Source: the human T2T-CHM13v2.0 reference genome, Homo sapiens
NCBI RefSeq assembly: GCF_009914755.1
Contig: NC_060931.1
Length of the DNA stretch: 64,000 bases
Strand: one strand, 5' to 3'
The translations under genes were made by a program, and so were the position numbers. This document shows, piece after piece, positions 11,463 to 13,493 of this stretch. The notes beneath the pieces are model-generated. The model was not told the origin of the DNA. It saw only the letters and a program-made list of their open reading frames with translations, and did not search any database. How positions within the stretch are numbered: the stretch's first letter is position 1; the number at the start of each line of letters is the position of its first letter.

Positions 11463-11619
11463 CTTCCTAGCAAACAACCTCTAAACAAAGCTTGAGATTT
11501 TTAGATCTCATTCCTATGACATTACTATGACATAAAAAATTCAGGCAGTTTACCTCATCTGTGAGGATTAGGGCTAAGAATTTAGGTAATTTTCACTGTT
11601 TTTATGCTAAAGAAGACTA
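11463..11619. repeat. Left arm of long non-Alu inverted repeat in WASL intron 10
   Basis: 11463-11545 is the reverse complement of 13411-13493 (80/83); 11541-11619 pairs imperfectly with 13010-13093. Confidence 0.95.
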
Positions 11620-11689
11620 TACCATAAACATAACCATAACTTTAAATACCAGGTGTCTATGTATATCCTACTGACATGCAATTTAACAA

Positions 11690-12510
11690 TTCAGACCTCT
11701 CCTGTGACTTCCAGACTCATAACGAAATGCCTACTCCACATCTATAGTTGAATTAATAGGTATCTCAAATTTAATATGTAAAATCAAACTCCTAATCTTC
11801 CCTCTCAAACTTTTTCTTCGTAAGTCTTTCCCCTTTCCAGTTGTTCAAGTCAAAAACCTTGGAGTCATTTTGCACTCTTCTTTTTCTTCAACCTTCACTT
11901 TCAAACCATCATCAAAACCAGTGATCTCCACATTCAAAATATAATTAATATTTAACCACTTCTCATTGGTGCTATAAACCTGGTTCAAGCCTCCATCACC
12001 TCTTGCTTGGATCATTACTACACCTCTGCTAAAAACCCTCCAATGGCTTCCCATCATATGCAGAATAAAAGCTAGTGCACTTTCAGGGGTCTCCAAAGCC
12101 TTACCACTGGCCTCCTACTACTTCTTGTATTTCATTCCTTACTATTCTTTCCCTCCCTCCCTTGCAAGCTCCGTGATCTCCTCATTGTTTCTCAACCTCA
12201 CAGACTTTATATTTTCTGTTCTTTCCATCGGATACACTTTCCCTAGTTTTCTACATGGTTCACTTCCTGAACTGCTGGTCTTTTCTCAAATGTCACCTCA
12301 GTTAGGCTTTATTGTCCCTTATCATCCTTTATCATTTCAAAATGAACCTCTCTCTCAACAGTCTGCCCCCTATTTCCCTTTTCTGTTAGACTTTTGTCCT
12401 TACTTCATGTCACCATTTAACATACTGTATGTTTTTCTAGTTTTCTTTGTTTATTGCTTGTCTCTCTCTCTCATTAGACCTAATGCATGTCGATGAAGGC
12501 AGGGACTTTT
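11690..12510 (+). mobile_element. L2 LINE fragment
   Basis: gtcaaaaaccttggagtcatttt, aaaccctccaatggcttccc, gaaggcagggac are L2 hallmarks. Confidence 0.7.
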
Positions 12511-13009
12511 TTTTTGTTAAAATTTTATTATTATTCCACAATAAATATTTATCTCTATCTCTGTAATGGAGGGTAGGTACAAATATGCCTATTTAAGGAA
12601 AACAAACATTGCTCAAGGATCTTAAGACATGGACATCCTTACAGAGAAACAAAAGGAAGGTAACATTTATTAAGCACCTACTATGTGCTAGGCAATCTGC
12701 AGGTTAGTGACATACTATTTAATTCTCACATCTATATGTTTTGTGAGTTCTCTGAATGTAACAAACAAGAAACTGAGGCTCACAGAGATTAAATAAATCT
12801 AAGAAGAAAGATCTGATTCTAGCACATCATGTTGGAGAAGCTATTTAGCAAACCTCAACTACTCCAATCAGCAAAACTCATATTCTTGTTCTTTCTTTAA
12901 AGGAATATTTATATGGTGGTATGTATATGTTTAATAATAACCTCAGAATAGGTACTGGTTTCTTCAAATCAACCTTTTAGAAAATGAAAAAGAAAGGTTT
13001 AAAAAAAGT

Positions 13010-13493
13010 TAGTATTCTTTAGCAAACTCTAGAAACAGTAAAAATTACTGAAATTCTTATCCCTAATCCTTACAGATGAGGTAAATGGCCCGATTTATTA
13101 TTATTATTATTTATTCATTTTATTTTTGAGACGAAGTTTTGCTCTTGTTGCCCATGTCGGAGTGCAATGGTGCGATCTTGGCTCACCACAACCTCTGCCT
13201 CCTGGGTTCAAGCAATTCTCCTGCCTCAGCCTCCCGAGTAGCTGGAATTACAGGCATGCGCCACCACGCCGGCTAACTTTTTTGTATTTTTAGTAGAGAT
13301 GGAGTTTCTCCATGTAGGCCAGGCTGGTCTCGAACTCCCGACCTCAGGTGATCCACCCGCCTCGGCCTCCCAAAGTGCTGGGATTACAGGTGTGAGTCAC
13401 CGCACCCAGCCCTGAATTTTTCATGTCACAGTAATGTCACAGGAATGAGATCTAAAAATCTCAAGCTTTGTTTAGAGGTTGTTTGCTAGGAAG
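13010..13493. repeat. Right arm of the intron 10 inverted repeat, split by an Alu (13010-13093 + 13411-13493)
   Basis: Reverse-complement match to 11463-11619 on both sides of the Alu. Confidence 0.92.
13094..13411 (-). mobile_element. Alu (AluSp/Sq-like), full length
   Basis: Dimeric Alu with (TTA)n/T tail on the left. Confidence 0.95.

What the first reader, a model, noticed from the sequence alone, without database searches (positions are those of the whole stretch)
11463..13493. Near-perfect 83-bp non-Alu long-range RNA duplex in the last WASL intron, with all mismatches G-U on the transcribed strand
Seen: 11463-11545 and 13411-13493 are reverse complements at 80/83 positions, including a 53-bp perfect run (11463-11515 / 13441-13493), about 1.9 kb apart. 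The three mismatches (11516/13440, 11527/13429, 11534/13422) are A.C on the + strand and so U.G wobbles in the minus-strand WASL pre-mRNA, giving an uninterrupted 83-bp helix. The arms are not Alu/L1. At most they loosely resemble MIR, and independent MIR copies are far more diverged than this. The 5' arm starts ~300 nt after the weak exon 10 donor. Inference: a maintained long-range pre-mRNA stem (RNA bridge, ADAR/Staufen/PKR substrate or endo-siRNA source) that could affect splicing of the exon encoding the Arp2/3-activating acidic tail. Caveat: 3/3 wobbles on one given strand has a 1-in-8 chance for random transitions.
Basis: partly seen in the sequence, partly recalled or inferred. Interest (0 to 1): 0.8.

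Follow-up and report, generated by a model that had tools for sequence, protein, structure and literature searches.

The report
Old single-copy inverted duplication, WASL intron
The last intron of the human WASL gene carries a real, one-of-a-kind inverted duplication, later split by an Alu element, that should fold into a long RNA double helix, but nothing in the sequence shows that the helix is kept for a purpose.

Summary
11463-11545 and 13411-13493 are reverse complements at 80/83. The three mismatches are A.C on the + strand and U.G in the minus-strand WASL pre-mRNA.

- **Longer repeat.** With the Alu at 13090-13411 removed, the arms align over 157 bp (11463-11619 against 13493-13010), with 12 mismatches and one 5-nt indel. 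The duplication therefore predates that Alu.
- **Age.** The Alu differs from a consensus of 29 genomic copies at 13/248 non-CpG sites.
- **Single copy.** A whole-genome search gave 3 of 3 matches at this locus. The same tool found dispersed old-repeat hits for the spacer.
- **Boundaries.** There is no homology beyond the 157-bp core and no target-site duplication.

Evidence that the helix is "maintained" is weak. Over the whole repeat, 4 of 8 transitions give G.U in the transcript and 4 give A.C. The lower divergence of the outer half has p = 0.04-0.07.

Barak et al. count 2,810 inverted duplications above 96% identity in human pre-mRNAs.

Verdict: an old, probably neutral, local inverted duplication and a plausible nuclear ADAR substrate. 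Function is not shown.

The parts
11463..11545 (-). Outer half of the left arm. In the WASL pre-mRNA it is the 3' strand of the 83-bp helix.
   Evidence: 80/83 complementary to 13411-13493, with 3 U.G pairs on the - strand.
11546..11619 (-). Inner half of the left arm. It is the 3' strand of the imperfect inner helix.
   Evidence: aligns to 13089-13010 with 9 mismatches in 74 pairs plus a 5-nt indel. Homology ends at 11619.
11620..13009 (.). Spacer (the loop in the RNA), made of old interspersed repeats. From memory I read these as a LINE-2 3' end at about 11690-12510 and a MIR-like stretch at about 12650-12830.
   Evidence: 39 dispersed genome matches at 66-97% identity for 11620-12560; 8 dispersed matches, all to 12650-12710. 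The family names are recalled, not tested.
13010..13089 (-). Inner half of the right arm. It is the 5' strand of the inner helix.
   Evidence: 82-85% identity to the left arm's inner half.
13090..13411 (-). Alu insertion with a degenerate A-rich tail, in the same orientation as WASL. It splits the right arm and forms a roughly 320-nt bulge between the two helices.
   Evidence: two Metazoa_SRP hits on the - strand at 13126-13410; removing 13090-13411 restores a gap-free arm alignment; 13/248 non-CpG and 8/36 CpG differences from a consensus of 29 genomic copies. The boundary with the arm is ambiguous by 1-2 nt.
13411..13493 (-). Outer half of the right arm. It is the 5' strand of the 83-bp helix and starts 296 nt after the exon 10 donor.

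Best explanation
This is a single-copy, local inverted duplication. A 157-bp piece of the WASL last intron was copied in reverse orientation about 1.4 kb away. The most likely cause (inferred) is a replication or repair template switch, because there is no target-site duplication and the edges are sharp.

An Alu later inserted at an A-rich site in the right-hand copy. Since then the two copies have drifted apart at roughly the neutral rate: 12 substitutions and one indel in 157 bp.

In the minus-strand WASL pre-mRNA the two copies are predicted to pair. They form an 83-bp uninterrupted helix, a roughly 320-nt Alu bulge and a 74-bp imperfect helix, closing a 1.39-kb loop.

Inferred and not shown: this nuclear, intronic double-stranded RNA is deaminated by ADAR enzymes and then degraded with the intron, with little or no effect on WASL expression. 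The high identity of the outer half is most simply a chance feature of a small number of substitutions.
For: - **Unique in the genome.** A 163-nt arm query against the 3.1-Gb T2T assembly gave 3 candidates, all scored and all at this locus. The same tool recovered 39 and 8 dispersed old-repeat matches for the spacer and 6111 candidates for the Alu.
- **Sharp limits.** Flanks beyond the 157-bp core align no better than shuffles: 276 of 300 shuffles for the outer flanks and 98 of 300 for the inner flanks reach the observed score.
- **No target-site duplication.** No direct repeat of 5 nt or more abuts either arm on both sides. The one hit, CTTTA, lies 3 nt from the left arm's 5' junction and 20 nt from its 3' junction.
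- **Predates the Alu.** Excising 13090-13411 gives a gap-free alignment across the insertion point.
- **Neutral-like divergence.** Per lineage, the inner half has 9 changes in 148 sites (6.1%) and the Alu 13 in 248 non-CpG sites (5.2%), two-sided p=0.83. Four of 12 mismatches are transversions, and there is a 5-nt indel.
- **No strand preference overall.** 4 of 8 transitions are G.U on the - strand.
- **Predicted to fold.** The MFE of the 4455-nt intron holds 83 of 83 outer pairs and 65 inner arm-to-arm pairs.
- **A known, populous class.** Barak et al. 2020 (PMC7006430, supplementary table read) count 2,810 inverted duplicated sequences above 96% identity in 16,473 human pre-mRNAs.
Against: - The outer 83 bp has 3 differences, where about 8.7 are expected from the Alu yardstick (Poisson p=0.026). 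The conditional tests give p=0.064 and 0.037.
- All three of those differences are wobble pairs in the transcript.
- The 53-bp clean run has p=0.074.

Together these leave room for constraint or for homogenisation of the outer half.

- The Alu consensus was built from the copies most like the query, so it is biased. It retains only 18 CpGs. The true Alu divergence is probably higher, which would sharpen the contrast.
- No other species, no population data and no RNA data could be consulted.
- The genome search skips very common words and scores only the best candidates, so very diverged relatives of the arm, such as old MIR copies, would be missed.
Confidence: 0.6

Rival explanations
1. Maintained functional stem. 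The outer 83-bp helix is kept paired by selection in the primate WASL pre-mRNA. Possible roles are shortening the effective last intron, assisting the exon 10 donor, or recruiting double-stranded-RNA-binding proteins.
For: Outer-half divergence is 3/83 against 9/74 in the inner half and about 10% expected pairwise (p=0.03-0.07). Three of 3 outer mismatches are G.U in the transcript, and the - strand duplex is 12.8 kcal/mol more stable than the + strand. The helix is present in the whole-intron MFE. The exon 10 donor lacks the consensus bases at +4 to +6.
Against: The strand signal vanishes over the full repeat (4 of 8 transitions). The inner helix favours the other strand. The statistics are marginal and were selected after the fact from a genome-wide read. 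The Alu insertion into one arm was tolerated. The donor is no weaker than 4 of the 8 other WASL donors by consensus matches. Nothing on it was found in print.
Confidence: 0.13
2. Neutral duplication whose outer half was re-homogenised after the Alu insertion. The process would be gene conversion or replication template switching between the two inverted copies, so the outer half looks younger than the inner half without any selection on RNA.
For: The step in identity (96.4% against 87.8%) coincides with the Alu insertion point, which would end any conversion tract. Template switching between imperfect inverted-repeat arms is described as homogenising them (abstract of PMC13100816 in the listing; PMC8794818, passages).
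Against: Eighty-three base pairs of homology 1.9 kb apart is short for efficient mammalian gene conversion (recalled, not tested). The identity step is only marginally significant (Fisher p=0.068). No outgroup was available to show a conversion event.
Confidence: 0.17
3. The arms are two members, or the terminal inverted repeats, of a transposable-element family.
For: The arms are sharply bounded. A 3-nt TCT abuts both outer ends (flanks printed, read by eye).
Against: No other copy in 3.1 Gb. No target-site duplication of 5 nt or more. The spacer is a mosaic of older interspersed repeats rather than element-specific sequence. The MIR likeness is not significant in a pairwise test.
Confidence: 0.04

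Closest known systems
Inverted duplicated sequences in pre-mRNAs (Barak et al. 2020, Genome Biol, PMC7006430; outline, passages, one method section and one supplementary table read)
   Same: It is a plus/minus self-match within one pre-mRNA, longer than 40 bp and above 96% identity for the outer 83 bp. It is intronic, where such structures are tolerated.
   Different: It is below their 'long' class (over 300 bp). It is not built from a known repeat family. WASL does not occur in the supplementary files held (0 occurrences).
Inverted duplicates of vertebrate genomes (Chen et al. 2017, Genome Biol Evol, PMC5398296; abstract and two sections read)
   Same: Two reverse-complementary copies separated by a spacer, possibly formed by replication error and able to give hairpin RNA.
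   Different: That catalogue kept spacers of 1,000 nt or less and studied intergenic cases. This one has a spacer of 1.39 kb (1.87 kb between the outer halves) and is intronic.
Inverted Alu pairs as ADAR substrates
   Same: A long intramolecular duplex in an intron with arms under 2 kb apart. The predicted fate is the same: nuclear A-to-I editing and removal with the intron.
   Different: The arms are single-copy and far better paired (96% against 79-87% for the Alu pairs in this window). Editing here was not observed.
Conserved long-range pre-mRNA structures / RNA bridges (Kalmykova et al. 2021, PMC8052449; Margasyuk et al. 2023, PMC10691357; passages read)
   Same: Complementary intronic boxes lying within one intron, the configuration those authors find enriched.
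   Different: Those are 10-50 nt boxes defined by cross-species conservation or by proximity-ligation reads, with RepeatMasker regions excluded. Neither criterion could be tested here, and WASL is not mentioned in either main text.
Template-switch mutations that create hairpins (Monttinen and Loytynoja 2022, PMC8794818; passages read)
   Same: A one-step origin of a perfect reverse-complement copy near its source, without a target-site duplication.
   Different: The described events are tens of bases at most and lie close to the source. Here 157 bp was copied 1.4 kb away.

Membership tests
Nearly perfect inverted duplicated sequence in a pre-mRNA (Barak et al. 2020 definition) | Plus/minus BLAST self-match within one pre-mRNA, length over 40 bp | tested here: met
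   self-BLAST hit 11463-11545 / 13411-13493, 83 bp. Both arms lie in the intron 9335-13789.
Nearly perfect inverted duplicated sequence in a pre-mRNA (Barak et al. 2020 definition) | Identity above 96% | tested here: met
   96.39% for the outer 83 bp. The full 157-bp repeat is 145/157 = 92.4%, so only the outer half qualifies.
Long immunogenic-type dsRNA (over 300 bp and over 96%) | Helix longer than 300 bp | tested here: not met
   83 bp perfect-type helix; 157 bp in all, interrupted by the Alu bulge.
Inverted pair of interspersed repeats (IRAlu type) | Arms belong to a multicopy family | tested here: not met
   3 candidates, 3 scored, all at this locus. Positive controls with the same tool are.
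DNA transposon with terminal inverted repeats | Other copies in the genome, and a target-site duplication flanking the unit | tested here: not met
   No other copy. Only a 3-nt TCT abuts both outer ends (flanks, read by eye). The interior is made of older dispersed repeats.
Conserved long-range RNA structure / RNA bridge | Cross-species conservation with compensatory substitutions | not testable with these tools
   No primate or mammalian genome other than the window's own assembly is held (text: 'It has no relatives here').
Conserved long-range RNA structure / RNA bridge | Mismatches biased towards wobble pairs on the transcribed strand | tested here: not met
   4 of 8 transitions are G.U on the - strand and 4 of 8 on the + strand. 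The 3-of-3 result holds only for the outer half.
ADAR substrate | Stable duplex of tens of base pairs in a transcribed RNA | tested here: met
   -140.7 kcal/mol with 83 of 83 paired, and present in the whole-intron MFE. This is prediction only.
ADAR substrate | Observed A-to-I editing, or ADAR binding | not testable with these tools
   No editing database or RNA-seq is on hand. The search for WASL + A-to-I + ADAR listed 5 of 6 papers holding the terms; judged from titles and abstract starts alone (none opened), none concerns this intron.
microRNA / hairpin small-RNA precursor | Match to a described RNA family at the arms | tested here: not met
   11 hits at E of 1 or less in 9000-14200. None reaches its gathering score. 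The only one touching an arm (mir-619, 13373-13437, 20.6 bits against 80) lies mainly in the Alu.

The most novel reading that the evidence does not exclude
After an anthropoid-age inverted duplication, the outer 83 bp has been held as an uninterrupted helix in the WASL pre-mRNA, tolerating only A-U to G.U changes. The reason would be that pairing loops out 1.9 kb of the last intron and helps join exon 10 to the exon that encodes the Arp2/3-activating acidic tail. That would make it a primate-specific, non-repeat RNA bridge of unusual length.
Probability: 0.1. Interest if true: 0.6.

Novelty: new member of a known kind. Interest (0 to 1): 0.3.

Why it matters
If it is neutral, as I think most likely, it is one more of the few thousand near-perfect inverted duplications in human pre-mRNAs. 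Its use would be as a clean, non-Alu, single-copy test substrate for nuclear double-stranded-RNA handling (ADAR editing, proximity-ligation mapping) in a broadly expressed gene.

If the outer helix proved to be constrained, it would be a rare example of a very long, lineage-specific intronic helix with a role in splicing the last exon of an actin-nucleation factor. It would also show how a one-step inverted duplication can create a functional RNA structure.

Tried and rejected
- **Earlier findings.** A parallel call without the required field failed.
- **Cross-species comparison.** Not possible. The genome tool holds no relatives of this assembly, and the other collections are viral, prokaryotic, phage, plasmid or E. 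coli.
- **MIR origin.** A local alignment of the right arm with flanks against a spacer stretch that I take, from memory, for a MIR copy scored 14.0 against a shuffle mean of 13.7 (z=0.1; 126 of 300 shuffles reach it). It cannot be shown this way.
- **Extension of the repeat into the flanks.** None found.
- **Target-site duplications.** None of 5 nt or more at the arm or Alu junctions by script. By eye, the Alu has at best a decayed one.
- **Genome-wide baseline.** I drew 80 random regions but fetched none. Stretches are limited to 10 kb and the expected yield was about 1-2 cases. I used the published count instead.
- **Rfam.** Nothing at the arms.
- **Literature on WASL.** WASL with 'inverted repeat' and 'intron' (2 papers, both versions of one C. 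elegans Argonaute study). WASL with A-to-I and ADAR (6 papers hold the terms, 5 listed; judged from titles and abstract starts alone, none opened, none about this intron). WASL has 0 occurrences in the main texts of PMC10691357, PMC8052449 and PMC12695637 and 0 in the three held supplements of PMC7006430. The Zenodo files of the Pervouchine-lab catalogues and the supplements of PMC12695637 were not seen and could list this site.
- **One literature search failed** on a term that was too long.

Full report
**1. The observation**

The window is T2T-CHM13 chr7:124,992,001-125,056,000. The finding lies in the intron between WASL exon 10 (13790-13898) and exon 11 (6697-9334) on the minus strand.

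- The repeat finder returns arms 11463-11545 and 13411-13493, 83 nt, 96% complementary, 1865 nt apart.
- A script places the three non-Watson-Crick positions at 11516/13440, 11527/13429 and 11534/13422. Each is A.C on the + strand and U.G on the - strand.
- The - strand arms pair at all 83 positions (-140.7 kcal/mol). The + strand arms leave three positions open (-127.9).
- In a self-BLAST of the window this pair is the only one of 87 inverted pairs above 90% identity. The other pairs of at least 40 bp within 5 kb have 79-87% identity; those about 300 bp long I read as Alu-Alu pairs.

**2. The repeat is longer than reported and is split by an Alu**

One search also lists a second pair, 11535-11604 / 13030-13099, at 84%. 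Reading the sequence shows that the right arm is interrupted by an Alu. Rfam finds two signal-recognition-particle-like halves on the - strand at 13126-13410, with a degenerate A-rich tail.

When 13090-13411 is cut out, the left arm 11463-11619 aligns without a gap across the cut to the reverse complement of 13010-13493. The alignment has 157 pairs, 12 mismatches and one 5-nt indel. The outer half has 3 mismatches in 83 and the inner half 9 in 74.

The duplication therefore existed before the Alu landed at an A-rich site in the right-hand copy.

**3. It is single-copy and sharply bounded**

A search of the whole 3.1-Gb assembly with 163 nt of the left arm gave three candidates. All three were scored and all lie at this locus: the arm itself, the outer right arm (96%) and the inner right arm (82%).

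The tool warns that it skips very common words and scores only the best candidates. With the same settings, however, it found:
- 6111 candidates for the Alu;
- 39 dispersed matches of 66-97% identity for spacer 11620-12560;
- 8 dispersed matches for 12650-12710.

It can therefore see both young and old interspersed repeats. From memory I read the spacer as a LINE-2 3' end followed by a MIR-like piece. Those names were not tested.

Beyond the 157-bp core the flanks are no more alike than shuffled sequence: 276 of 300 shuffles for the outer flanks and 98 of 300 for the inner flanks reach the observed score. No direct repeat of 5 nt or more abuts either arm on both sides. Only a 3-nt TCT touches both outer ends, by eye.

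A pair of transposon copies, or a transposon with terminal inverted repeats, is thus very unlikely.

**4. Age**

I aligned the window's Alu with 29 of the 40 genomic copies scored. Only 30 loci are returned, and one of them is the query itself. I then counted differences from their majority consensus: 13 of 248 non-CpG sites (5.2%) and 8 of 36 CpG-site bases.

That consensus is biased towards the query, because the copies were chosen for similarity. It retains only 18 CpGs, so the true divergence is probably somewhat higher.

- By recalled diagnostic features it is an AluS-type element.
- With recalled primate substitution rates, 5% non-CpG divergence means some tens of millions of years.
- The inner half of the arms has 9 changes over 148 lineage-sites (6.1%), indistinguishable from the Alu (two-sided p=0.83).

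The duplication is therefore old and probably arose not long before the Alu insertion. It is not a recent event.

**5. Is the helix maintained?**

Two arguments were offered or suggest themselves.

*(a) Strand-specific wobble.* This is true for the outer half (3 of 3). The full repeat has 8 transition mismatches. Four give G.U in the WASL transcript (three outer, one inner). Four give A.C there and G.U on the opposite strand. The inner helix is more stable on the + strand (-87.6 against -80.2). There are also 4 transversions and an indel. Overall there is no strand preference (4 of 8).

*(b) Low divergence of the outer half.* The relevant tests are:

| Comparison | Result |
|---|---|
| 3/83 against 9/74 (inner half), Fisher two-sided | p=0.068 |
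| Outer half against the Alu non-CpG rate, conditional binomial | p=0.064 |
| Outer half against Alu plus inner half | p=0.037 |
| Poisson with the Alu rate taken as known | p=0.026 |
| 3 or fewer of 12 randomly placed mismatches falling in the first 83 of 157 positions | p=0.042 |
| A clean run of 53 or more given 12 random mismatches | p=0.074 |

These are suggestive at best, and the site was picked because it looked striking. I therefore treat the high identity of the outer half as most likely chance.

Two live alternatives remain. One is later homogenisation of the outer half by gene conversion or template switching, since the identity step coincides with the Alu, which would end a conversion tract. 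The other is real constraint on pairing.

**6. What it most likely does**

Shown by computation:
- In the minimum-energy fold of the whole 4455-nt intron (-1214.6 kcal/mol), all 83 outer pairs are present in register, together with 65 arm-to-arm pairs of the inner helix.
- The Alu pairs almost only with itself (176 of 179 paired bases).

Inferred:
- The nascent intron forms an 83-bp helix, an Alu bulge and a 74-bp imperfect helix around a 1.39-kb loop.
- ADAR enzymes act on long duplexes (passages of PMC8052449), so editing of the arms is the expected consequence.
- Intronic double-stranded RNAs are removed with splicing and are not expected to reach cytosolic sensors (passage of PMC12695637). 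PKR, MDA5 or Staufen-decay roles are therefore unlikely.
- The exon 10 donor, CAG|GTAGAG, matches the consensus at 6 of 9 positions, like 4 of the other 8 WASL donors in the window. There is no special need for help from a helix.

**7. Comparison with what is known**

The object belongs to a described and populous class.

- **Barak et al. 2020** (PMC7006430; outline, passages, one method section and one supplementary table read) define inverted duplicated sequences by plus/minus self-BLAST hits above 40 bp. Their table for identity above 96% counts 2,810 in 16,473 human pre-mRNAs against 4,895 same-strand controls (the column sums match the figures given in the main text). They find such structures largely tolerated in introns.
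- **Chen et al. 2017** (PMC5398296; abstract and two sections read) catalogue millions of inverted duplicates, but with spacers of 1 kb or less.
- **The conserved-complementary-region catalogues** (PMC8052449, PMC10691357; passages read) exclude RepeatMasker regions and do not mention WASL in their main texts.

I found nothing in print on this particular site. Supplementary catalogues on Zenodo and the editing databases were out of reach.

**8. Verdict**

This is a real, unique, old inverted duplication that should give a long intronic RNA duplex. It is ordinary in kind, unusually clean in form, and without demonstrated function.

My odds:
- neutral, with the outer-half identity due to chance: about 0.6;
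- neutral but re-homogenised: about 0.17;
- pairing under selection: about 0.13;
- transposon-related: about 0.04.

A primate alignment would settle it within minutes.

Noticed in passing
window 13775-13789 (- strand): The exon 10 donor GT is followed directly by a GA dinucleotide run (GTAGAGAGAGAGAGA). This purine-rich tract sits at the very start of the last intron, and its full extent was not read.
   Followed up: partly
window 23851-27095: A cluster of about 300-bp elements forms several inverted pairs at 79-86% identity, 250-2700 nt apart (for example 24643-24934 / 25182-25471). By size and identity I read them as inverted Alu pairs in a more upstream WASL intron. They would be the ordinary kind of ADAR substrate in this gene.
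   Followed up: no
window 10555-10660: A TA-rich low-complexity stretch with many overlapping imperfect palindromes (pairs I3-I11), in the same intron.
   Followed up: no
window 9268-9359 (- strand): Sub-threshold Rfam hits to archaeal C/D-box sRNA models and to MIR5298 overlap the exon 11 acceptor and the start of its coding part (GATGAAGATGA...). All are far below their gathering scores and are almost certainly spurious.
   Followed up: no
window 13149-13275 and 13373-13437: Sub-threshold hits to mir-1268, mir-3135 and mir-619 lie inside the Alu. I recall these as Alu-derived microRNA families, so the hits reflect the Alu rather than a microRNA gene.
   Followed up: no
window 11437-11450: Just upstream of the left arm stands ATGAATGAATGAAG, which I recall as the typical 3' end of LINE-2/MIR elements. 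The left arm may therefore have been placed right beside an old repeat end. Not tested.
   Followed up: no
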